Virus record (IMG/VR): IMGVR_UViG_2654587540_000008
Length of the DNA: 14,799 bases
Strand: one strand, 5' to 3'
Source of the DNA: a virus
Lineage: Duplodnaviria; Heunggongvirae; Uroviricota; Caudoviricetes
Shown: positions 1-14,799 of the stretch, piece after piece
How the letters are laid out: each line of letters starts with the position of its first letter
Position numbering within the stretch: position 1 is the first letter of the stretch
Made by a program: the position numbers and the translations under genes
Notes under the pieces: generated by a model
Database searches by the model: none
What the model was told of the DNA's origin: nothing
The model's input: the letters and a program-made list of their open reading frames with translations, nothing else

Positions 1-1023
1 ATGAGTGCTGGCAAGGGAGTGTTGCTCGTCATCTGTCTGTTATTTCTGCCGTTGAAGTCTGCGCTTGCCCTGAACTGCTACTTTGGTTCATCCGGTGGCT
101 CGGTAGAAAAATCAGAAGCGATTCAACCTTTTGCTGTACCAGGCAATGCCAAACTCGGCGATAAGATTTGGGAATCTGACGATATTAAAATTCCCGTCTA
201 TTGTGACAACAATACCAACGGCAATTTTGAAAGTGAGCATGTTTATGCCTGGGTAAACCCCTACCCGGGGGTGCAGGATCGCTATTATCAACTCGGCGTA
301 ACTTACAATGGCGTTGATTATGACGCCAACCAGGGAAAAAGCCGCATCGACACTAACCAGTGTATTGACAGTAAGAACATTGACATTTATACCCCTGAGC
401 AGATTATCGCGATGGGATGGCAGAACAAAATTTGCTCGGGTGATCCCGCTAATATTCACATGTCGCGTACCTTTCTCGCTCGCATGCGGTTATACGTCAA
501 AATACGAGAAATGCCGCCGCATGATTATCAAAGTACGCTTAGCGACTATATCGTCGTGCAATTTGACGGTGCCGGTAGCGTTAACGAAGACCCTACTGCC
601 CAAAACCTGAAATATCATATTACTGGTCTGGAAAACATTCGCGTGCTGGATTGCAGCGTCAATTTTTCCATTTCACCGGAAACACAGGTGATTGATTTTG
701 GTAAATTTAATTTGCTGGATATTCGTCGCCACACAATGTCGAAAACATTCAGTATTAAGACGACAAAATCACAAAATGACCAATGCACCGACGGATTTAA
801 AGTCAGTTCCTCCTTTTATACCGAAGAAACGTTGGTTGAAGAAGATAAAGCATTGTTGATTGGTAATGGTCTGAAGCTACGTTTGCTGGATGAAAACGCC
901 TCGCCTTATACCTTCAATAAATATGCTGAATACGCCGATTTCACCAGCGATATGCTGATCTACGAAAAAACCTATACGGCTGAACTTTCGTCCATTGCAG
1001 GCACCCCCATTGATCAGACATGA
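1..1023 (+). CDS. Secreted protein with N-terminal signal peptide, possibly a fimbrial/pilus adhesin-like protein (host-side gene, product uncertain)
   Basis: 340-aa ORF with stop at 1021-1023. N-terminus [23 protein letters not shown] has a hydrophobic core and an A-x-A cleavage-type motif. Cys pair in the mature N-terminal part and a beta-rich C-terminal region ([13 protein letters not shown]...YTAELSS) loosely resemble the pilin domain of two-domain fimbrial adhesins. Lower GC than the phage genes. No homology search was possible. Confidence 0.5.
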
Positions 1024-1206
1024 GATAAATGAAGGGGGATCCGTGAGATAAATAACGAATTGGAGTGGGTTAACATGGGTTCTGGTGAACAGAACTGAAA
1101 TTCTTTTTCGCTATACGATAGATAAGTCGGACATTGAAATCATCCTTTCTGGCAACTTAGAATCGAGTTTGCTGAAACATGACCCGTAACAAAAAGGATG
1201 ATTCCA

Positions 1207-1368
1207 ATGACTACTCAAAACAATAAGCATGACAGCCTTGATTACTCAGAAAAGCCCAAAAGCAAGCACATCGTGACGTTCGAGCGCGATTCCGGTAGAA
1301 AAGGAGAATCGTCTTCCTCTGCCAATAAAAACACTATGCCGGCAGCTCCTGCTCCGGGGAAAAAATAA
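1207..1368 (+). CDS. Small hydrophilic ORF (53 aa), hypothetical
   Basis: ATG at 1207 preceded by AAGGA about 8 nt upstream; encodes MTTQNNKHDSLDYSEKPKSKHIVTFERDSGRKGESSSSANKNTMPAAPAPGKK, stop TAA at 1366-1368. Below the 60-aa cutoff of the ORF track. Converges on the minus-strand gene ending at 1372. No recognisable domain. Confidence 0.2.
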   Translation: MTTQNNKHDSLDYSEKPKSKHIVTFERDSGRKGESSSSANKNTMPAAPAPGKK

Positions 1369-1371
1369 ACA

Positions 1372-2004
1372 TCATTCATCGCTCGTTGCACGAACGCGCC
1401 TGATCTCCACTCTGGCAATCTGATCTGCTGGAATATAGGTTGCCAGAGCTCCCCAGTACTTATCAACCACGCCTTTATACTCTTCCCATTCGTTACTGCC
1501 TGAAGGGCTGCTGTGTGTGACGTAAAGAACCATATCGCCTTTATTCCCCAGGGTAAACGGACCGTTAGGCCACTCTTCAAAGTTCCCTGGCAGTCGTGAC
1601 ATCATACCGGAACCATCGCGAAGAATCACTCTGACCTCGGTGACGCTGAAGTCTGTTTGATCAAACATTGCCTGCCATGCTGAGCTGGTATCGTCAGACC
1701 ATGAAATATCATTATTCCACAGTAATCTGTACATCCATTTGCGACCGTACCTGCGCCACCACGCACCGCATGTAACAGCACACAGAAGTGCTGGTGGTGT
1801 TGCCAGCCAGGCATTCAGACCTGCCCACATAACAACCTGGTAAGCCATCATTGCTGTCAGGCCAAAAATTAGCGAAGAAAAAGTCACCTCAATGGGTTTG
1901 TGCTGATCCTTCAGCCCCACATTCGCAATAAAATACCCAATATAGCCACTGGTCAGAGTCACCAGTGTTGCCCATGGCAAATTTAACAACGAAACGTCAA
2001 ACAT
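1372..2004 (-). CDS. Membrane protein with N-terminal hydrophobic helices and a soluble C-terminal domain, hypothetical; possible prophage moron
   Basis: The ORF track gives 1372..2082, but its first ~25 codons overlap the terminator hairpin. The likely start is the ATG at 2004 (MFDVSLLNL...), preceded on the minus strand by AGGGAG. Three hydrophobic segments are followed by a ~110-aa hydrophilic domain. It sits in its own unit downstream of the mor terminator. Confidence 0.55.
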   Translation of the reverse strand: MFDVSLLNLPWATLVTLTSGYIGYFIANVGLKDQHKPIEVTFSSLIFGLTAMMAYQVVMWAGLNAWLATPPALLCAVTCGAWWRRYGRKWMYRLLWNNDISWSDDTSSAWQAMFDQTDFSVTEVRVILRDGSGMMSRLPGNFEEWPNGPFTLGNKGDMVLYVTHSSPSGSNEWEEYKGVVDKYWGALATYIPADQIARVEIRRVRATSDE

Positions 2005-2040
2005 ATTTTCTCCCTGCATCCTGAATACTACAGAGAGAGC

Positions 2041-2077
2041 ATAAAAAAAGCACGGTAAGGGGTCTACCGTGCTTTTA
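2041..2077 (-). terminator. Rho-independent terminator (bidirectional hairpin) ending the minus-strand mor operon
   Basis: Perfect 11-bp inverted repeat AAAGCACGGTA (2047-2057) / TACCGTGCTTT (2065-2075) with a 7-nt loop AGGGGTC. It is flanked by an A7 run at 2043-2049 (a U-run on the minus-strand transcript) and TTTT on the plus strand. Lies 40 bp downstream of the Mor-like stop. Confidence 0.7.
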
Positions 2078-2118: not shown

Positions 2119-2517
2119 TTATCTGGATTTGTTAACGTCTCTCGTCTCCTCTGGCAGATCTTCATCAAACAACCTGCCCTGCATCCGATCCAGTTCTTCT
2201 TTTCTTACCCGCTTAACCACGCTGTAGACCCACTGAAGCGAAACACCAAATTTGCGGGCCAGTTCGTGGTGGTTGCGTCCGTTAAACTCCCTGAAGATTT
2301 CCCGGTCGCGCTGACTGACCTTCCATACCATGCCCATCGGGAAATAAACGTTTTGCCCGCCCCAGACCTGCATCATTCGGTTCGCGACAGCCTGACCAAT
2401 CTGGTCGGCAATTGCGGGCTCAATATCAATAATCTCGCGAACGGTCTCAGAGGTATGCTGTGCCAGTTCCACCAGGAGTTCCGGCCCTTTACTTCGAAAC
2501 TGATTCAGGTCGCTCAT
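2119..2517 (-). CDS. mor: Mor/C-family transcriptional activator (Mu middle-operon regulator-like)
   Basis: 132-aa ORF. The C-terminal half WGGQNVYFPMG...REIFREFNGRNHHELARKFGVSLQWVYSVVKRVRK matches the Mor/C-family GGQ.VY.P...FNGRN..EL...YGV....VY..I.R.R pattern as I recall it for Mu Mor. AGGAG lies 6 nt upstream of the ATG at 2517. Confidence 0.8.
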   Translation of the reverse strand: MSDLNQFRSKGPELLVELAQHTSETVREIIDIEPAIADQIGQAVANRMMQVWGGQNVYFPMGMVWKVSQRDREIFREFNGRNHHELARKFGVSLQWVYSVVKRVRKEELDRMQGRLFDEDLPEETRDVNKSR

Positions 2518-2939: not shown

Positions 2940-3143
2940 TCAGCCCCGCTTTTTCAGTCTGCCAGCAGCAATGTCAGTTGCAGCCGGCAGGGTCACAGGC
3001 CAGAACAGTATGACAGCTGTCATATACAGGATGTAATACGCGGTGTCATAGTGGTTACCGAAGCCCAGTGCATAATGAAGCCGGGCACTGCATAATCCTG
3101 CATATGTGTACCAGAAAAGAAAACAGGCAATAGTTTCAGCCAT
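2940..3143 (-). CDS. Small hydrophobic protein, hypothetical
   Basis: The track ORF is 2940..3164; the ATG at 3143 (MAETIACFLFWYTYAG...) gives an 8-bp overlap with the upstream gene. Two hydrophobic segments. Tightly packed within the minus-strand operon. Confidence 0.35.
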   Translation of the reverse strand: MAETIACFLFWYTYAGLCSARLHYALGFGNHYDTAYYILYMTAVILFWPVTLPAATDIAAGRLKKRG

Positions 3144-3543
3144 TATATTTTTTCTCCAGTTCAATATTTTTCAGGTCATTTTCCGCAAACAGGATTGCTG
3201 TTCTGGCACTCCGCAATCGTGCTTTCGCATTTTTTTCTTCACGTTCAAGGCCAGCGACAGATTCACGAAGAGCTTCTCGCTTTTTATGAAGACGATTAAT
3301 TTCATGCACGATATTTTCAGCATTACGGGCACGGTCAAGGATAAATTCAAATGGATCCAGTACAGCCCCACACAGTGAACAGGTCAGCGTCCGGTTGATT
3401 TCAGAGACTGTTGTCCGGGCATGCCGGCACAGGTTTTGTTCGTTATTCTTTCGTTCAGAAATAACCACGTTCAGCAGTTTTTTGGCTTCTGCATCAGGAG
3501 CTGGCTGAAGCAAATGAATAATGTTATCGCTGTCGTTATCCAT
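3136..3543 (-). CDS. Hypothetical protein with a Cys-containing segment and a coiled-coil-like C-terminus
   Basis: The track ORF is 3136..3642; the likely start is the ATG at 3543 (MDNDSDNIIHLL...), with GGAGG 6 nt upstream and an 8-bp overlap with the end of the upstream gene. Contains C..H....C.LCG spacing and a K/E/R-rich C-terminal helix. Confidence 0.5.
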   Translation of the reverse strand: MDNDSDNIIHLLQPAPDAEAKKLLNVVISERKNNEQNLCRHARTTVSEINRTLTCSLCGAVLDPFEFILDRARNAENIVHEINRLHKKREALRESVAGLEREEKNAKARLRSARTAILFAENDLKNIELEKKYNG

Positions 3544-4225
3544 TATATGCCTCCAGTTTCTGTTGTTCCTGCCCACTGACCGGTCGGTGCAGTCTGACGT
3601 TCTGCCCTTCTCGAAACCCCGCATAGCGCGAGGCGTCGCCATTGCGGCTTCTTCCCGGTTTACGCGCTCTGGTGGTTTGCGTTTGCGGGTATTTATGTTC
3701 CAGCCACTGCTGCATCAGTTCACGTTCGTCATCGGTCAGGGCGAAGGACTGTATTTCACTGATAACGGCCAGCACCCAGCCTTCAGCAAACTGGTCACCA
3801 CGGCTGGTACGGGTGGCAGTTTTTATTCTTTTGTTCTGTGTGCTGATATACTGCTGACGCGCCTTTTTCAGCTGGCGGGCCAGCACTTCCCAGGTGTATG
3901 CAGCCAGTGCAGCCCGTTCCCGGTTGCCGTAGAACCCCACACCCGGATATGTGCCGGGGTGAATGATGGAGTTAACACCAAATGCCTCGCGGATGATGTT
4001 CATCAGGCCCAGCATGTAGCGCGGTGGACGGAGACTGCCTGTCGGCCAGTAATGACTGATGGTTTCATCAATATCACTCATGGCAATGTCGGAATGTGTG
4101 ATGCCGTGAACATCCATCAGTTTACGGGCACGGCGCAGTGCCAGAGCGGCTTCGTGTGGGTTGCCGGATGCGGCCAGCGCCAGCAACTTTTTCAGTTTCT
4201 CAATGTGTTTATTCTGGTCTGTCAT
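3536..4225 (-). CDS. DUF2786-like protein (N-terminal KLKKLLALAASGNPHEAALALRRARKLM motif)
   Basis: 229-aa ORF. The N-terminal motif matches the DUF2786 family signature as I recall it. GGAG lies 8 nt upstream of the ATG at 4225, and the start overlaps the upstream stop in an ATGA arrangement. Confidence 0.6.
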   Translation of the reverse strand: MTDQNKHIEKLKKLLALAASGNPHEAALALRRARKLMDVHGITHSDIAMSDIDETISHYWPTGSLRPPRYMLGLMNIIREAFGVNSIIHPGTYPGVGFYGNRERAALAAYTWEVLARQLKKARQQYISTQNKRIKTATRTSRGDQFAEGWVLAVISEIQSFALTDDERELMQQWLEHKYPQTQTTRARKPGRSRNGDASRYAGFREGQNVRLHRPVSGQEQQKLEAYNG

Positions 4226-4451: not shown

Positions 4452-4748
4452 TTACTCGTTCGTGTAAATCACGCCCAGTCGTGCAGCCAGACGTTCCAGT
4501 TTTTTCTGTTTGTGGAAGTCAATCAGCCGGTCCATCCCCTGAAGGCGCAGCTGCTCTGTCATGATTTCCACGTCTGCCAGCTCTGCCGCGAGGTCACTTT
4601 CGCTGCCCTGTCCGTTCAGGTTGCGGGCGGCACTGGCCGCCAGTTCGGCGGCCTCTTCTGTCAGTTTCAGGGCCTGTGCATCCGGCCCGAAACGCTGCAG
4701 AGCCAGACGATAGAGGGCAGTGCGTGTGAGTATGGTGTTCCGTGTCAT
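4452..4748 (-). CDS. MazG-like nucleotide pyrophosphohydrolase domain protein (phage-type, ~100 aa)
   Basis: 98 aa. Pattern FGP...EEAAEL....ELADVEIM..QL...G.D.....K.KK..R resembles small phage MazG-like proteins. GAGGG lies 5 nt upstream of the ATG at 4748. First gene of the minus-strand operon. Confidence 0.5.
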   Translation of the reverse strand: MTRNTILTRTALYRLALQRFGPDAQALKLTEEAAELAASAARNLNGQGSESDLAAELADVEIMTEQLRLQGMDRLIDFHKQKKLERLAARLGVIYTNE

Positions 4749-10560: not shown

Positions 10561-11643
10561 ATGGCAAATCTACCCGAAACCCCGCAGTGGGAAAGCGGCA
10601 TCTACCAGATTGAGGTCTCTGACCCCGTTCTGGGCGGACCTGACGGAATTTCTAACCGCCAGGCTAAACAACTGGCCAGCCGAACGTCATACCTCAAACA
10701 GAAGGTCGAAAAAAGCGAAACAGACCTGGCTGCACATATCGCGGCAGTTGACCCGCATACCCAGTACGCGACGAAAGCCAGTCCGACATTCACCGGCACA
10801 CCAACAGCACCTACACCTGCAAATGGTGATAACAGCAAAAAGCTGGCGACGACGGAGTTTGTGGCCAAAGCACTTGCGGCACTTGCAGGCAGCGCCCCTG
10901 AGACACTGGATACGCTTAAAGAGCTGGCTGACGCTCTCGGTAATGATCCAAACTTTGCGACTACGGTACTGAACAAGCTGGCGGAAAAGCTGGCTAAAGA
11001 CCAGAACGGCGCAGATATTCCTGAGCCTGCGCTGTTTGTCAAAAACCTTGGTTTGGGGGAAGGCTCTGCACTGCCCGTTGGTGTGCCTGTTCCGTGGCCA
11101 TCAGCAACACCGCCAGAGGGATGGCTGAAATGTAACGGCGCAGCATTTTCTTCTGAAATGTACCCCAAACTGGCAAAGGCTTATCCCACGAATAAATTAC
11201 CGGATTTACGGGGTGAATTTATCCGTGGCTGGGATGACGGACGTGGCGTGGATGCGGGGCGAACATTACTGGGTGCTCAGGATTTTGCGTTTGAAGATCA
11301 TGCTCTGGGGCTACCTACCAATCAGGGATATGCAGGTATTGAGAAAGGTAGCACTGAAAATGATATTTATGCCGCTTTCTCTGATGGCATGCACTATACA
11401 GGGAATGCAACCAGTAGCGGTCAATGGGATGATTATTCTCAGTCAAAAATCTATATCCGTAGTGATGGTAAACCTGTCGGAAATAACATTGAGTTAGCTA
11501 ATTCAAATGAGGCCTTGCGTTCTTCTTTACGTACTTATAGAGCCAGTACAGGATGGTATAACCCAGGATTAAACAAACCTAAAACAGCTACAGAAACACG
11601 TCCACGCAACGTTGCTTTTAATTACATCGTAAGAGCCGCATGA
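10561..11643 (+). CDS. Tail fibre protein: constant N-terminal part (10561 to about 11047) fused to currently expressed variable C-terminal cassette A
   Basis: 360 aa. The N-terminus has phage tail-fibre repeat-like sequence (VDPHTQYATKASPTFTGTPTAPTPANGDNSKKLATTEFV). The C-terminal part begins with a tail-collar-like module (WLKCNGAAFSSEMYPKLAKAYPTNKLPDLRGEFIRGWDDGRG) and ends ETRPRNVAFNYIVRAA. The crossover site lies inside the gene at 11036-11061. Confidence 0.85.
   Translation: MANLPETPQWESGIYQIEVSDPVLGGPDGISNRQAKQLASRTSYLKQKVEKSETDLAAHIAAVDPHTQYATKASPTFTGTPTAPTPANGDNSKKLATTEFVAKALAALAGSAPETLDTLKELADALGNDPNFATTVLNKLAEKLAKDQNGADIPEPALFVKNLGLGEGSALPVGVPVPWPSATPPEGWLKCNGAAFSSEMYPKLAKAYPTNKLPDLRGEFIRGWDDGRGVDAGRTLLGAQDFAFEDHALGLPTNQGYAGIEKGSTENDIYAAFSDGMHYTGNATSSGQWDDYSQSKIYIRSDGKPVGNNIELANSNEALRSSLRTYRASTGWYNPGLNKPKTATETRPRNVAFNYIVRAA
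11036..11061 (+). other. Serine-invertase crossover site (hix/gix/cix-like), expression-site copy
   Basis: TTGTCAAAAACC-TT-GGTTTGGGGGAA has the 12-2-12 architecture and AAACC nn GGTTT core of hixL (TTCTTGAAAACC AA GGTTTTTGATAA) and gix sites, as recalled. It sits exactly at the constant/variable junction of the tail fibre gene. Confidence 0.7.
11048..11253 (+). repeat. Conserved 5' cassette module, copy A (tail-collar-like domain coding, ~200 bp)
   Basis: Encodes GLGEGSALPVGVPVPWPSATPPEGWLKCNGAAFSSEMYPKLAKAYPTNKLPDLRGEFIRGWDDGRG. Near-identical DNA recurs at 11649, 12193 and, inverted, at about 13990-14194, with a partial inverted copy at about 13592-13700. Confidence 0.85.
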
Positions 11644-11662
11644 AAACGTTGGTTTGGGGGAA
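11637..11662 (+). other. Crossover-site-like sequence at the cassette A/B junction, with a degenerate left half-site
   Basis: CGCATGAAAACG-TT-GGTTTGGGGGAA. The right half and centre are identical to the expression-site copy; the left half retains only the AAAAC core (5 of 12 matches). Confidence 0.4.
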
Positions 11663-11854
11663 GGCTCTGCACTGCCCGTTGGTGTGCCTGTTCCGTGGCC
11701 ATCAGCCACACCGCCAGAGGGCTGGCTGAAATGCAACGGCGCAGCATTTTCTTCTGAAATGTACCCCAAACTGGCAAAGGCTTACCCCACCAATAAATTA
11801 CCGGATTTACGCGGTGAGTTTATTCGTGGCTGGGATGACGGGCGCGGAGTAGAT
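11649..11854 (+). repeat. Conserved 5' cassette module, copy B
   Basis: Near-identical to 11048-11253 with scattered, mostly synonymous substitutions; the encoded peptide is identical through GWDDGRG. Confidence 0.85.
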
Positions 11855-12187
11855 ACAGGACGTGTTTTATTAAGTAATCAAACAGATGCTTTTCAAACAC
11901 ACAGACATAAGACCTATTTTTATGCAGGTATCAACCGTAATGAAATGCCTTTAAAAAATTTACCTGAATCAGAAGAAATGCTGACATTAAGCTCTACAGT
12001 TAATGCCTTGTCTCCAGCCGATATTGATGCCACAAATTCATTAATTGGGAATGACGATTACAACTGTGTTATTGAAGGCAATAAAAACAGTAAACGTACA
12101 GCGACAGAGTTGAATACCAGCTCTACAGGCACAACAGAAACCCGCCCCCGCAATATTGCTTTTAACTTCATTGTAAGAGCAGCATAG
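11651..12187 (+). CDS. Silent alternative tail-fibre C-terminal cassette B (no independent start codon or RBS)
   Basis: Open frame beginning right after the stop of cassette A. It encodes the same 65-aa tail-collar module, then a divergent ~95-aa region, and ends with the conserved ETRPRNIAFNFIVRAA and TAG. The track start is an internal TTG with no Shine-Dalgarno sequence. Confidence 0.7.
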   Translation, partial: GLGEGSALPVGVPVPWPSATPPEGWLKCNGAAFSSEMYPKLAKAYPTNKLPDLRGEFIRGWDDGRGVDTGRVLLSNQTDAFQTHRHKTYFYAGINRNEMPLKNLPESEEMLTLSSTVNALSPADIDATNSLIGNDDYNCVIEGNKNSKRTATELNTSSTGTTETRPRNIAFNFIVRAA

Positions 12188-12206
12188 AAACGTTGGTTTG
12201 GGGGAA
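12181..12206 (+). other. Crossover-site-like sequence at the cassette B/C junction, with a degenerate left half-site
   Basis: AGCATAGAAACG-TT-GGTTTGGGGGAA; same right half and centre as the expression-site copy. Confidence 0.4.
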
Positions 12207-12398
12207 GGCTCGGCGCTGCCTGTTGGCGTGCCGGTTCCATGGCCGTCAGCCACACCGCCAGAGGGCTGGCTGAAATGTAACGGCGCAGCATTTTCTTCTG
12301 AAATGTACCCCAAACTGGCAAAGGCTTACCCCACCAATAAATTACCGGATTTACGGGGTGAGTTTATTCGTGGCTGGGATGACGGGCGCGGAATTGAC
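12193..12398 (+). repeat. Conserved 5' cassette module, copy C
   Basis: Near-identical to copies A and B; the encoded peptide is identical through GWDDGRG. Confidence 0.85.
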
Positions 12399-12665
12399 TC
12401 TGGTCGCAACCTGTTATCTGCACAGAATGATGCAATTCAGAATATTGTTGGTTCTTTTGGGCGTACCCAGCTTTTTAAAGACGTTCTTAGTTCAGGACCA
12501 TTTAGTAGAATTAATCAAGTTTTATCTATTGGTCTAAAGGAAACGGAATTTATTGAGGGTTATGGAGCTTATAACTGGACATTCGACGCTTCTCGAGCGG
12601 TTCGTACAGCATCTGAAACCCGCCCCCGAAATATTACATTTAACTATATCGTGAGGGCGGCTTAA
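12195..12665 (+). CDS. Silent alternative tail-fibre C-terminal cassette C
   Basis: Same conserved 5' module, a divergent middle (..NLLSAQNDAIQNIVGSFGRTQLFKDVLSSGPFSRINQVLSIGLKETEFIEGYGAYNWTFDASRAVRTAS..) and the conserved end ETRPRNITFNYIVRAA, stop TAA at 12663-12665. No start codon context. Confidence 0.7.
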   Translation, partial: GLGEGSALPVGVPVPWPSATPPEGWLKCNGAAFSSEMYPKLAKAYPTNKLPDLRGEFIRGWDDGRGIDSGRNLLSAQNDAIQNIVGSFGRTQLFKDVLSSGPFSRINQVLSIGLKETEFIEGYGAYNWTFDASRAVRTASETRPRNITFNYIVRAA

Positions 12666-12671
12666 TTATGA

Positions 12672-13289
12672 TCAACTGACAGTTGCCAGAGGCATTTCCG
12701 GCCAGTTGATATCCGGCGCAGTGCTGAGGTCAGTCGCATTAAGCGCATCTATAAAATCAAGCACGGCGTTCAGTTTTTCCGTCTCCTGTGGCGTCAACTG
12801 GCGTCCGGCTCGTAGTTTGAGATTTATAAGCTCAACGGATGCCATTGCCTGCTCCTCAAGTTGCTGACGATGCGCTCCGGCAGCTTCCAGTTCTGCAGTG
12901 TGCTGTCGTTCCGTATCTGTCACCCAGTTCTCACCATCCCAGATATCATAGATGGTAGCTGGCTGTTTTACCGTCGTATCAGAAGGGTAATCTCCCGGCT
13001 GTGTGATTTGCACAGCGTTACCATTCTCTGTGCTGTAAACCGTCTCGCCTCTGTGGTCTGGGACATATTTCCAGATGTTCTGGTCGGTATCACGACAGAC
13101 AGCGAAGCCAGGGCGCTCTTCCGGTGGCGCGTCAATGCATGAATGAGCCGGAATTCCAACACCATAAGCGAGATATTCAACAGTGGCAGAGAGATATTCA
13201 CGGTTTTCAGCATCGTAGTTATAAACTGTAATATCGCCTGCAGTTGTAGCGATACCATTCTGATCAAGTACTGCAACAGCGTTATTCAT
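12672..13289 (-). CDS. Tail fibre assembly protein (Tfa; Mu U / P2 gpG / lambda Tfa family)
   Basis: 205 aa. The C-terminus ..LNAVLDFIDALNATDLSTAPDINWPEMP has the typical Tfa ending. The start codon overlaps the stop of cassette D as TAATG (translational coupling). It converges on cassette C with 6 bp between stops. Confidence 0.8.
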   Translation of the reverse strand: MNNAVAVLDQNGIATTAGDITVYNYDAENREYLSATVEYLAYGVGIPAHSCIDAPPEERPGFAVCRDTDQNIWKYVPDHRGETVYSTENGNAVQITQPGDYPSDTTVKQPATIYDIWDGENWVTDTERQHTAELEAAGAHRQQLEEQAMASVELINLKLRAGRQLTPQETEKLNAVLDFIDALNATDLSTAPDINWPEMPLATVS

Positions 13290-13700
13290 TAAATAGCCCT
13301 TACAATATAGTTAAACGCAATATTACGGGGGCGGGTTTCTGTTCCTGTATTCCCTCCGTTGACACCTAACCTGTACACACCACGAGTGCCAATAGCACGT
13401 AGTGAAGATGGAACCTTTACGCCTGACTCATCTGTTTTAACTATCCCTCCATCCCCGTATGTAGCCAGTATACCAGGATTTGTACCTGCACGTGTGCTGT
13501 TTGCAGCAAGCCCTTCACCGGTCCATAACTCCATATAGTGAGTATGATCCATAACCGAATGTGGTTGTGCATTAAGCAAGAAACGCCCTGAATCAATTCC
13601 CCGTCCGTCATCCCAGCCACGAATAAACTCACCCCGTAAATCCGGTAATTTATTGGTGGGGTAAGCCTTTGCCAGTTTGGGGTACATTTCAGAAGAAAAT
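13289..13700 (-). CDS. Alternative tail-fibre C-terminal cassette D (inverted orientation, 5' end truncated by an N run), followed by tfa
   Basis: Minus-strand frame encoding ..SSEMYPKLAKAYPTNKLPDLRGEFIRGWDDGRGIDSGRFLLNAQPHSVMDHTHYMELWTGEGL...TGTETRPRNIAFNYIVRAI. The first ~100 bp of the conserved module are missing where the N run 13701-13710 sits. Confidence 0.7.
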
Positions 13701-13710
13701 NNNNNNNNNN
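13701..13710. other. Run of 10 N at the cassette E/D junction; assembly gap or masked sequence
   Basis: By comparison with the A/B and B/C junctions, about 97 bp of conserved sequence (crossover site plus start of the tail-collar module) is expected here, so the 10 N do not represent true length. Confidence 0.9.
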
Positions 13711-13715
13711 CGTTT

Positions 13716-14194
13716 CTATGCTGCTCTTACAATGAAGTTAAAAGCAATATTGCGTGGACGAGTTATATTAAAAAATGACCCACTTAAAGCAACTTTGGAA
13801 CGGCTATTGGCGTTACCCAGAGATGCGTACCATAAATAATCGCTCCGATAATCAGTTGAGAATGTTTTATCACCGCCATAATCAATGCTATTACCGTTAC
13901 TCATATATGAAATATCAACTGAAGCATCATTGTCATCTCTACCACCAACTAAAGTACCTTTCTGCCACCCAAGCAACTGGCGGCCAGGATCAATTCCCCG
14001 TCCATCATCCCAGCCACGAATAAACTCACCCCGTAAATCCGGTAATTTATTCGTGGGATAAGCCTTTGCCAGTTTGGGGTACATTTCAGAAGAAAATGCT
14101 GCGCCGTTACATTTCAGCCAGCCCGCTGGCGGTGTGGCTGACGGCCACGGAACAGGCACACCAACGGGCAGTGCAGAGCCTTCCCCCAAACCAA
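13716..14194 (-). CDS. Alternative tail-fibre C-terminal cassette E (inverted orientation)
   Basis: Minus-strand frame encoding the full conserved module (one substitution, PPAGW instead of PPEGW), a divergent middle (..QLLGWQKGTLVGGRDDNDASVDISYMSNGNSIDYGGDKTFSTDYRSDYLWYASLGNANSRSKVALSGSFFN) and ITRPRNIAFNFIVRAA. The track's upstream extension to 14228 runs through the N run and is not trusted. Confidence 0.7.
13990..14194 (-). repeat. Conserved 5' cassette module, copy E (inverted)
   Basis: Reverse complement is near-identical to 11048-11253. Confidence 0.85.
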
Positions 14195-14204
14195 NNNNNN
14201 NNNN
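14195..14204. other. Run of 10 N exactly where the crossover half-site of cassette E is expected
   Basis: On the minus strand the sequence reads ...CTTTGTTTTG-N10-TTGGTTTGGGGGAA. The N run replaces the left half-site and lies 22 bp upstream of the invertase start. Confidence 0.9.
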
Positions 14205-14226
14205 CAAAACAAAGAGGATATTTTTC

Positions 14227-14799
14227 ATGCAAATTGGCTACATTCGTGTGTCAACAAATGACCAGAATACAGATTTACAACGAAACGCACTGAACTGCGC
14301 AGGATGTGAACTGATTTTTGAAGATAAAATCAGCGGAACAAAGTCAGCCAGACCAGGATTGAAAAAGCTACTCAGAACTTTATCAGAAGGAGATACGCTC
14401 GTTGTCTGGAAGCTGGACAGGCTGGGCAGAAGCATGAAGCACCTTATCACTCTTATTGAGGAACTGCGGGGAAAAGGGGTTAACTTCCGTAGCCTTACAG
14501 ACAGCATTGATACGTCAACACCCATGGGACGTTTCTTTTTTCACATCATGGGGGCTTTGGCGGAAATGGAGCGTGAATTAATAGTTGAACGAACACTGGC
14601 CGGACTTGAAGCAGCACGTGCACAGGGGCGTATTGGCGGACGCCGTCCGAAACTGACAAAAGAGCAACATGAACAAATAGCAAGGCTGATCAAAAATGGC
14701 TATAGCAGGAAACAACTGGCAATTATTTACGATATCGGCATATCGACGATTTATCGTTATCACCCGGTAGAAAAGCTACAAACTCAAACTGAGTTGTAA
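14227..14799 (+). CDS. Gin/Pin/Cin/Hin-family serine DNA invertase
   Basis: 190 aa. MQIGYIRVSTNDQNTDLQRNAL...DTLVVWKLDRLGRSMKHL...FRSLTDSIDTSTPMGRFFFHIMGALAEMERELIVERT...GRIGGRRPKL is near-identical in motif content to Gin/Pin/Hin as recalled. The catalytic Ser is at position 9 and there is a C-terminal helix-turn-helix. The track ORF from 14074 is an upstream artefact; stop TAA at 14797-14799. Confidence 0.92.
   Translation: MQIGYIRVSTNDQNTDLQRNALNCAGCELIFEDKISGTKSARPGLKKLLRTLSEGDTLVVWKLDRLGRSMKHLITLIEELRGKGVNFRSLTDSIDTSTPMGRFFFHIMGALAEMERELIVERTLAGLEAARAQGRIGGRRPKLTKEQHEQIARLIKNGYSRKQLAIIYDIGISTIYRYHPVEKLQTQTEL

What the first reader, a model, noticed from the sequence alone, without database searches (positions are those of the whole stretch)
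1372..2004. Stand-alone membrane protein gene downstream of the mor terminator; candidate moron
A ~210-aa protein with three N-terminal hydrophobic helices and a soluble C-terminal domain is encoded in its own unit between a strong terminator and the prophage/host boundary. Genes in this position in prophages are often lysogenic-conversion or superinfection-exclusion/abortive-infection functions.
Basis: inference. Interest (0 to 1): 0.4.

Follow-up and report, generated by a model that had tools for sequence, protein, structure and literature searches.

The report
Two-gene prophage cargo cassette
The flagged gene is real and encodes an uncharacterised inner-membrane protein that, with an overlooked tiny partner gene facing it, forms an optional cargo cassette at the end of a Mu-like prophage; it is a plausible but untested candidate for excluding other phages.

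Summary
Window 1372-2004 (minus strand) encodes a 210-aa protein under purifying selection. It has three N-terminal helices and a C-terminal Sm/SH3-like small beta-barrel. It lies between a strong bidirectional terminator after mor and the left end (1011) of a BcepMu-type transposable prophage inserted in ybgO.

The moron reading is supported. About 640 of 5426 complete E. coli genomes carry the gemA-mor backbone, but only 132 carry this segment. Near-identical prophages end about 170 nt after mor. Homologues sit in unrelated phage late operons and in chromosomal islands.

The gene is not stand-alone. A convergent 46-60-aa gene (window 1198-1368) encodes a hydrophilic, unstructured protein with a Pro-rich, Lys-ended tail. 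It abuts or overlaps the 3' end in 33 of 36 distinct variants, from Enterobacterales to Bradyrhizobium. In Enterobacterales it has a conserved strong promoter, so its transcript must be antisense to the target.

No match was found to holins, spanins, PADLOC defence models, NCBIfam or solved structures. The only family links are phrog_12870 (unknown function) and sub-threshold DUF6338.

My best guess, at low confidence, is a membrane-acting exclusion or abortive-infection module held down by its partner. Function is untested.

The parts
1011..1060 (.). Left end of the transposable prophage (5'-TGATCAGACATGAGATAAATGAAGGGGGATCCGTGAGATAAATAACGAA), with repeated GAGATAAAT motifs that are presumed transposase-binding sites. 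Host ybgO ends at 1010.
   Evidence: Matches in 114 E. coli genomes begin at window 1009-1011 and lie at different chromosomal sites. The same end motif closes related prophages. Bases 1-1010 are ybgO.
1078..1096 (+). Weak hairpin just inside the phage end. It may insulate the cassette from read-in transcription.
   Evidence: Terminator-like site; fold -9.6 kcal/mol, z = -2.8. Its role is inferred.
1134..1163 (+). Sigma-70-type promoter TTGAAA-18-TAGAAT (10 of 12) for the small partner gene.
   Evidence: The same hexamers at the same distance (32-40 nt before the start codon) were picked in 8 of 14 Enterobacterales loci, although the partner proteins are only 20-48% identical. Scores of 10/12 or better: 57% observed against 2.5% of shuffles.
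1198..1368 (+). Convergent partner gene: 56 aa (53 aa if started at the ATG at 1207, as RefSeq annotates). The product is hydrophilic, has no predicted secondary structure, carries the motif D-Y-S-E-x-P-K and ends in the tail PAAPAPGKK.
   Evidence: phrog_15726, E = 1.3e-40. Homologous ORFs occur in the same position in 33 of 36 distinct variants (28 pass the Pro-tail test), against 4.5% in shuffles and 1 of 35 in the upstream control. dN/dS is 0.05-0.25 in close pairs. AF2 gives no DSSP elements and pTM 0.17. Database homologues are all 'hypothetical protein' and have locus tags adjacent to target homologues.
1372..2004 (-). The flagged gene: a 210-aa membrane protein with three helices (11-28, 37-60, 65-97), a basic juxtamembrane stretch (RRYGRKWMYR) and a C-terminal Sm/SH3-like small beta-barrel (about 109-205).
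2038..2066 (-). Candidate weak promoter of the flagged gene. The -35 TAGACC (2066-2061) lies in the terminator loop. After a 17-nt spacer, the -10 TATGCT (2043-2038) overlaps the end of the T-run.
   Evidence: Only 8 of 12 matches, so the standard scan missed it. A -35-like hexamer in the hairpin loop and TATNCT/TACNAT at the end of the T-run recur at the same spacing in loci whose hairpin sequences differ. This is inference, not shown.
2046..2076 (-). Intrinsic terminator after mor, usable in both directions. It bounds the cassette on the phage side.
   Evidence: Hairpin plus T-run is kept with different stem sequences in diverged loci. Rfam gives only chance-level matches here.
2119..2517 (-). 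mor (Mor/C-family late activator). This is context: it is the last backbone gene before the variable slot.
   Evidence: PF08765, E = 1.1e-43. gemA-mor-target synteny holds in all Enterobacterales loci.

Best explanation
The flagged ORF and the convergent 56-aa gene next to it form one self-contained accessory cassette, a moron. It occupies a variable slot between mor and the left end of a BcepMu-type transposable prophage.

Shown:
- The large gene encodes a conserved protein with three N-terminal helices and a C-terminal Sm/SH3-like small beta-barrel.
- The cassette is dispensable for the phage and moves between unrelated phage backbones and chromosomal islands.
- The partner gene is nearly always present and has a conserved strong promoter in Enterobacterales.
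- The two reading frames abut or overlap at their 3' ends, so their transcripts must overlap.
- A bidirectional terminator closes the cassette on the phage side.

Inferred:
- The topology is N-out/C-in with the barrel in the cytoplasm (positive-inside rule).
- In the lysogen the strong partner promoter holds expression of the membrane protein down by antisense or convergent transcription.
- The partner's proline-rich, lysine-ended tail may also bind the SH3-like barrel.
- When that control is lost or overridden, for example by infection or by lytic read-through, the membrane protein oligomerises through its conserved Gly/Tyr-rich helix 1 and small-residue helix 3. It then perturbs the inner membrane, which excludes or aborts an incoming phage.

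Confidence by part: about 0.9 that it is a two-gene accessory cassette, and about 0.35 that its job is phage exclusion or abortive infection by membrane action. The single figure given (0.4) is for the statement as a whole.

For: Accessory status: prophages with 92-97% identical mor end 166-182 nt after mor, or carry a different 109-aa ORF. Similarity to the window type is limited to mor and the last 40-70 nt. The backbone is in 640 complete E. coli genomes and the cassette in 132.

Mobility: homologues lie between the head-tail connector and head-completion genes of an HK97-like contig, between tail genes of other viral contigs, next to a serine resolvase, and next to an M78-peptidase/DUF4411 pair.

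Partner. Its conserved promoter. Its lack of predicted structure.

3' abutment or overlap: the partner stop lies from 33 nt inside the target reading frame to 43 nt beyond its stop codon; in the window it is 3 nt beyond.

No strictly conserved catalytic-type residues across the wide family: only Gly, Tyr, Trp, Pro, Thr, Val, Phe and one Arg reach 90% or more. This fits a binder or pore better than an enzyme.

Precedent: defence systems have been found in Mu-like prophages of E. coli (PMC9519451).
Against: There is no expression or phenotype evidence of any kind. No PADLOC model matches the protein or any of 38 family members.

Three lineages (L018, L019, L053: Pantoea persica, Arsenophonus) keep an intact target without the partner, with dN/dS of 0.20-0.24 among them. 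The partner is therefore not an indispensable antidote, and the membrane protein is not necessarily toxic.

The target promoter is only an 8/12 match. Helices 1 and 3 are only moderately hydrophobic. The gene's neighbours are mostly not known defence genes.
Confidence: 0.4

Rival explanations
1. It is a toxin-antitoxin-like addiction module. The membrane protein is a toxin and the labile small protein and/or its antisense transcript is the antidote. The main effect is to stabilise the element that carries it, not to defend against phages.
For: The two genes are tightly linked across very different contexts. The partner promoter is strong and the target promoter weak. The transcription units converge and overlap at their 3' ends, as in type I systems of prophage-like elements such as txpA/RatA and bsrG/SR4 (own knowledge). 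The partner is small and unstructured. Islands carrying the family lie next to a recombinase.
Against: Target genes without a partner persist under purifying selection in three loci. At 210 aa the 'toxin' is far larger than type I toxins. Toxicity was not tested.
Confidence: 0.2
2. It is a classical superinfection-exclusion protein. It sits in the inner membrane and blocks DNA entry of incoming phages, as P22 SieA, HK97 gp15 and T4 Imm do. The partner plays only a minor regulatory role.
For: It is a prophage-borne inner-membrane protein in a moron position, insulated by a terminator. The family occurs in late-operon moron positions like that of HK97 gp15 (the gp15 comparison is own knowledge).
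Against: No sequence relationship to any such protein was detected, although only PHROGs, Pfam, PADLOC and NCBIfam were scanned. The conserved cytoplasmic barrel and the conserved partner are not explained by a simple entry block.
Confidence: 0.15
3. It has a lytic-cycle accessory function for the phage itself, such as holin-like or lysis-timing activity, or exclusion during lytic growth. It would be switched on when early or late transcription reads through into the gene and overrides the partner promoter.
For: It has three helices with an inferred N-out/C-in topology and a basic juxtamembrane stretch, like class I holins. The best viral fold matches of the helical part are holins. The gene is co-oriented with the flanking phage operon in the Mu-like prophages and with the flanking structural genes in the HK97-like contig L061, while the partner is antisense to it.
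Against: About four fifths of E. coli prophages with the same backbone lack it. Full-length relatives have their own holin, SLT endolysin and lipoprotein cassette. Homologues occur in islands with no phage genes. The holin similarities are faint (E >= 5e-3, TM-score <= 0.37).
Confidence: 0.12
4. It is a lysogenic-conversion function unrelated to phages: a small oligomeric channel or sensor. The layout of three helices followed by an Sm-like barrel recalls the core of MscS. It would alter envelope physiology or stress tolerance.
For: Architecture and inferred topology. Sm-like domains commonly form rings (own knowledge).
Confidence: 0.08

Closest known systems
PHROG family phrog_12870 (unknown function)
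   Same: Full-length match, 1-210 of 210 profile positions, E = 2.8e-131. All 38 diverse family members tested match only this family.
   Different: The family carries no annotation, so membership says nothing about function.
Pfam DUF6338 (PF19865)
   Same: 21 of 39 homologues give weak matches over helix 2, helix 3 and the linker (profile positions 54-144 of 205). NCBI names one homologue 'DUF6338 family protein'.
   Different: The window protein itself gives no match. The best homologues score 25.9 bits against a cut-off of 26.5, and the beta-barrel is not covered. DUF6338 is itself uncharacterised; one paper mentions it, in passing.
Prophage morons that encode inner-membrane exclusion proteins (HK97 gp15, P22 SieA, T4 Imm)
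   Same: An optional, insulated gene for an inner-membrane protein carried by a temperate phage. Family members sit in late-operon moron positions.
   Different: No detected homology. Here there is a conserved cytoplasmic small beta-barrel and a conserved convergent microprotein gene. The comparison with the named proteins rests on my own knowledge and is not a test.
Membrane effectors of abortive-infection systems that join transmembrane helices to a small cytoplasmic beta-barrel (for example CBASS Cap15)
   Same: Short helical membrane anchor plus a small cytoplasmic barrel that could act as the sensing or binding part.
   Different: No PADLOC match. No cyclase or other signalling gene nearby. 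Three helices and a five-stranded Sm-like barrel rather than the Cap15 layout (own knowledge).
Type I toxin-antitoxin loci with convergent 3'-overlapping transcripts in prophage-like elements (txpA/RatA, bsrG/SR4)
   Same: Convergent units with no room for a terminator between them, and a strong promoter on the antisense side.
   Different: The membrane protein is 210 aa, not a peptide of under 60 aa. The antisense unit encodes a conserved protein. Partner-less loci exist.
MscS mechanosensitive channel core
   Same: Three helices, inferred N-out/C-in topology, followed by an Sm-like beta domain.

Membership tests
phrog_12870 | Significant full-length match to the family HMM | tested here: met
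   E = 2.8e-131, residues 1-210 on profile 1-210 of 210. All 38 of 38 family members also match.
Pfam DUF6338 (PF19865) | Score at or above the gathering cut-off (26.5 bits) | tested here: not met
   No match for the window protein, even at E <= 1. The best homologues reach 25.9, 25.4 and 23.9 bits, covering only the helix 2-helix 3-linker part.
Moron (optional phage cargo gene) | Present in some and absent from other closely related phages, at a fixed slot | tested here: met
   With mor 92-97% identical, the phage end lies 166-182 nt after mor, or a different ORF fills the slot. 132 genomes carry the cassette against 640 with the backbone.
Moron (optional phage cargo gene) | Own promoter | tested here: inconclusive
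   Target: only an 8/12 match, though it recurs at the same position in diverged loci. Partner gene: a 10/12 promoter conserved across genera.
Moron (optional phage cargo gene) | Terminator that insulates it from the phage operon | tested here: met
   Terminator at 2076-2046, -19.1 kcal/mol, z = -6.6, also folds on the other strand. It recurs with different stems in diverged loci. There is no terminator between the two cassette genes.
Moron (optional phage cargo gene) | Expressed from the repressed prophage | not testable with these tools
   Needs RNA-seq or a reporter assay in a lysogen.
Holin | Sequence or fold relationship to a holin family | tested here: not met
   No Pfam or PHROG holin match. 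BFVD Foldseek gives only faint matches of the helical part (best holin E = 4.9e-3, TM-score 0.37).
Holin | Placed beside the endolysin and spanin genes | tested here: not met
   In the full-length relative the holin, SLT endolysin and lipoprotein genes lie about 11.5 kb away, at L001 32524-34565. The target is at 20363-20995.
Known anti-phage defence systems (PADLOC-DB 2.0) | Match to any model of a system component | tested here: not met
   0 families at E <= 0.1 for the protein and for its partner. 0 families at E <= 0.01 for 38 family members.
Sm/LSm-like small beta-barrel fold | Structural superposition of the C-terminal domain on Sm/LSm proteins | tested here: met
MscS-type channel | Profile-level sequence relationship to MscS | tested here: not met
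Toxin-antitoxin pair | Obligatory co-occurrence of the two genes | tested here: inconclusive
   33 of 36 variants have the partner, but three intact partner-less loci exist.
Toxin-antitoxin pair | Toxicity of one product, neutralised by the other | not testable with these tools
   Needs expression experiments.

The most novel reading that the evidence does not exclude
The cassette is a previously undescribed, widely spread two-gene system. It has about 500 representative clusters, from Enterobacterales to Rhizobiales, in at least three kinds of prophage and in islands. A three-helix membrane protein with an SH3/Sm-like cytoplasmic barrel would be controlled by a convergently encoded, disordered, proline-tailed microprotein. 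That control would act both by antisense transcription and by tail-barrel binding. The system would act as a new type of membrane-acting phage-exclusion or abortive-infection module.
Probability: 0.25. Interest if true: 0.65.

Novelty: new variant of a known kind. Interest (0 to 1): 0.42.

Why it matters
Prophage cargo genes are a main source of new anti-phage and lysogenic-conversion functions. This analysis turns a lone 'hypothetical protein' into a defined, compact unit of about 1 kb. The unit has clear boundaries, a conserved partner gene, natural knock-out controls (near-identical prophages without it) and natural partner-less variants.

That makes it cheap to test. If it proves to be an exclusion or abortive-infection module, it would add a microprotein-controlled membrane effector to the known repertoire. 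It would also mark the slot between mor and the phage end of BcepMu-type prophages as a cargo hotspot. If it does nothing in such tests, it is one more conserved unknown.

Tried and rejected
- **Pfam, NCBIfam and PADLOC** on the protein, its partner and distant family members gave nothing beyond sub-threshold DUF6338.
- **Profile search of PDB sequences** gave only chance-level matches (E >= 0.5). Foldseek against PDB gave nothing below E = 0.3. The afdb50 library was unavailable.
- **Holin reading**: rejected as a membership claim, though kept among the rival explanations, for the reasons in the membership table.
- **MscS reading**: hhalign probability 0.6%.
- **Enzyme reading** (a Ser/His/Asp cluster suggested by the close homologues: H35, S101, D104, D157): dropped, because these positions are not conserved in the wider family.
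- **Composition**: GC content of the cassette does not differ clearly from its neighbours.
- **Rfam**: no RNA family in 900-2600.
- **Metagenome scans**: broad-alignment scans failed for lack of a conserved stretch; a narrower alignment worked.
- **Literature**: searches for DUF6338, phrog_12870 and the RefSeq accession found no functional study. A Tn-seq paper on Pectobacteriaceae prophages gave no data on this cassette. The KS10 paper did not settle the BcepMu gene order, so the 'BcepMu-type' label rests and my own knowledge.

Full report
**The observation.** Window 1372-2004 holds, on the minus strand, a 633-nt ORF with its ATG at 2004 and GGGAGA 5 nt upstream. It encodes 210 aa. The longer 236-aa reading from TTG 2082 would run through the terminator, and no homologue supports it, since all of them start at MFD/MID. 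RefSeq annotates the same CDS in a 99% identical prophage.

It is a real gene. There are 72 close homologues and 524 representatives of 50%-identity clusters at E <= 1e-3, nearly all 200-230 aa and matched end to end. Pairwise dN/dS is 0.12-0.25.

**Architecture.** AlphaFold2 on a 39-sequence alignment gives mean pLDDT 86. The model has helices 11-28, 37-60 and 65-97, a short helix 109-115, and a beta domain up to residue 205. Only helix 2 passes the classical hydropathy threshold. Helices 1 and 3 are moderately hydrophobic and rich in Gly, Tyr, Thr and Ala.

The stretch after helix 3 carries five basic residues, the first loop two, and the second loop none. By the positive-inside rule the topology is therefore N-out/C-in, with the C-terminal domain in the cytoplasm. 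This is inference.

**The surroundings.** Directly upstream are mor (PF08765, 1.1e-43) and gemA (PF06252) on the same strand. Between mor and the target lies a hairpin of 13 pairs followed by seven T (2076-2046). It folds at -19.1 kcal/mol with z = -6.6, and at -16.7 kcal/mol on the other strand. Diverged loci keep a hairpin and T-run at the same place with different stem sequences.

The prophage ends at window 1011. Matches in 114 complete E. coli genomes start at 1009-1011 and lie next to different host genes (rhaS, mdfA, an ABC gene and others), as expected for a transposable phage. Bases 1-1010 are the host fimbrial gene ybgO.

A full-length relative (L001) shows the layout of the prophage. 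An early operon (Ner-like gene, transposase, ExeA-like B protein, Gam, DUF2786, gemA, mor) is transcribed toward this end. The lysis, head and tail genes lie on the other strand, beyond a divergent regulatory region. I recognise this as the BcepMu type of organisation (own knowledge).

**It is optional cargo.** I fetched 80 viral contigs through Mor. Those with mor 92-97% identical to the window end 166-182 nt after mor with no gene in between. Others carry an unrelated 109-aa ORF in that place. Similarity to the window type is confined to mor and the last 40-70 nt of the phage end.

Among 5426 complete E. coli genomes, 640 carry the gemA-mor backbone and 132 carry the cassette. In Klebsiella, Serratia, Salmonella, Citrobacter, Symbiopectobacterium and Arsenophonus the homologue (53-69% identity) is always the gene after mor, at the prophage end.

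Further away (31-46% identity) the family sits in quite different places:
- between the head-tail connector and head-completion genes of an HK97-like contig;
- between capsid and tail-morphogenesis genes of a second contig;
- between minor-tail and tail-tip genes of a third contig;
- in Bradyrhizobium, Afipia and Allosphingosinicella chromosomes, next to a serine resolvase or next to an M78-peptidase/DUF4411 pair.

This is how a moron behaves.

**It is not stand-alone.** Between the target and the phage end lies a convergent ORF, 1198-1368 on the plus strand (phrog_15726). Its stop codon is 3 nt from the target's stop codon.

I tested 36 distinct target variants that have enough flanking DNA. 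Of these, 28 have a convergent ORF of 33-92 aa as called (the conserved core is about 45-60 aa) ending within a few tens of nt of the target stop and carrying at least three prolines in its last 14 residues. Five more have an evident homologue that just misses that criterion. The rate is 4.5% in shuffled flanks and 1 of 35 in the upstream control.

The products share three features: an N-terminal M-T/S-x-K/N, one to three short motifs ([DN]-[YF]-[ST]-E/P...), and a tail of the type PPxPxKK. Examples are PAAPAPGKK in the window and PPPSPKKK in Bradyrhizobium.

Close pairs give dN/dS of 0.05-0.25. The window product is hydrophilic and gets no secondary structure and pTM 0.17 from AlphaFold2. Database homologues are all 'hypothetical protein', with locus tags adjacent to target homologues.

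In Enterobacterales the partner is preceded by a promoter, TTGAAA-18-TAGAAT, kept at the same distance in loci whose partner proteins are only 20-48% identical. By contrast the best candidate promoter for the target is an 8/12 match built into the terminator. Its -35 lies in the hairpin loop and its -10 at the end of the T-run. It recurs at that position in diverged loci but remains weak.

Because the two reading frames abut or overlap, no terminator can lie between them. Plus-strand transcripts from 1134-1163 must therefore run antisense through the target, probably up to the bidirectional terminator. This follows from the sequence, but actual transcription was not measured.

Other searches found little:
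- There is no sequence match to any solved structure, and Foldseek against PDB finds nothing significant.
- Against predicted viral structures, one uncharacterised protein matches at E = 1.2e-4. The rest are faint matches of the helical part to holins.
- Pfam gives nothing for the window protein. 21 of 39 homologues touch DUF6338 just below its cut-off, and only over helices 2-3 and the linker.
- PADLOC, NCBIfam and the INPHARED phage collection add nothing, apart from one 30%-identical gene at the end of a small Synechococcus phage record.
- A profile comparison with MscS, which has a similar layout of three helices followed by an Sm-like barrel, gives probability 0.6%.

Across the wide family only Gly, Tyr, Trp, Pro, Thr, Val, Phe and one Arg positions are conserved at 90% or more. 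The polar residues that are invariant among close homologues (H35, S101, D104, D157) vary further out. An enzyme is therefore unlikely, and a binding or pore-forming protein is more likely.

**How it most likely works.** What is shown is a compact, mobile two-gene cassette that the phage does not need. What I infer is this. The membrane protein is the effector, acting at the inner membrane through oligomerisation of its conserved helices. The partner restrains it, at the RNA level through the strong convergent promoter and perhaps at the protein level. A disordered PxxPxK tail is the kind of ligand that SH3-like barrels bind, but that resemblance is a lead, not a test. The benefit to the lysogen would be exclusion or abortion of other phages.

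I put about 0.35 on that function. A pure addiction (toxin-antitoxin) role is the main rival. It is weakened by three loci that keep an intact, constrained target without any partner. A lytic-cycle role is weakened by the absence of the cassette from four fifths of the related E. coli prophages, and by a separate lysis cassette in the full-length relative.

**Novelty.** I found no functional study of this family, of DUF6338 or of the partner. As an optional membrane-protein cargo gene of a prophage it belongs to a known kind. The conserved convergent microprotein partner, found from Enterobacterales to Rhizobiales, is a feature I have not seen described. Without expression or phenotype data the finding stays a well-delimited candidate, of moderate interest.

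Noticed in passing
window 10561-14228 and 14224-14799: A multi-cassette tail-fibre switching region. It holds three direct and two inverted copies of a 215-300-nt segment encoding GLGEGSALPVGVPVPWPSATPPEGWLKCNGAAF...GEFIRGWDDGRG. Each copy is followed by a different C-terminus ending ...TRPRNIAFNYIVRAA. The region also holds a tail-fibre-assembly-like gene (12672-13289, minus strand) and a serine invertase gene that runs off the window. At least five alternative fibre tips are possible, more than in Mu Gin and closer to the p15B Min type. A run of N lies near 14200.
   Followed up: partly
window about 4816 (between 4452-4748 and 5263): The early region ends in a truncated MazG-like fragment and is joined directly to the 3' end of the tail-tube gene and the tail-assembly genes. 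None of 5426 complete E. coli genomes contains this junction. The prophage in the window therefore lacks its transposase, repressor, lysis and head genes. This is either a large deletion or a scaffold join.
   Followed up: partly
window 1-1023: The host fimbrial gene ybgO is interrupted near its 3' end by the prophage end at 1011. The reading frame runs four codons into phage DNA before a stop.
   Followed up: yes
L093, L091, L092, L097, L099 (38-367 nt after mor): A third version of the slot between mor and the phage end carries a different 109-118-aa ORF (MARPSNIDKLPEDVRAELHSEL...) instead of the cassette. The slot therefore takes alternative cargo. That ORF was not characterised.
   Followed up: no
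L043, L046, L047, L057: Mosaic pattern: DUF2786 is 97-100% and gemA 94-95% identical to the window, but mor is 79-85% and the target only 67-72%. The end-proximal part, including the cassette allele, has been exchanged by recombination among E. coli prophages.
   Followed up: no
L018, L019, L053: Prophages of Pantoea persica and Arsenophonus type keep an intact target homologue but have no partner gene. In L018 and L053 the phage end is only about 200 nt after the target.
   Followed up: partly
window 3136-3642 (minus strand): A 168-aa early-region protein (phrog_1621) gives weak coiled-coil-type matches to PADLOC LmuB models (E = 2.8e-4 and weaker). This is probably compositional.
   Followed up: no
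L005 9756-11371 and L006 7706-9321: In Allosphingosinicella the target homologue lies about 1 kb from an M78-peptidase/DUF4411 gene pair, with one unassigned gene between them. That layout resembles Rosmer-type toxin-antitoxin defence pairs (RosmerTA is described in PMC13566846).
   Followed up: no
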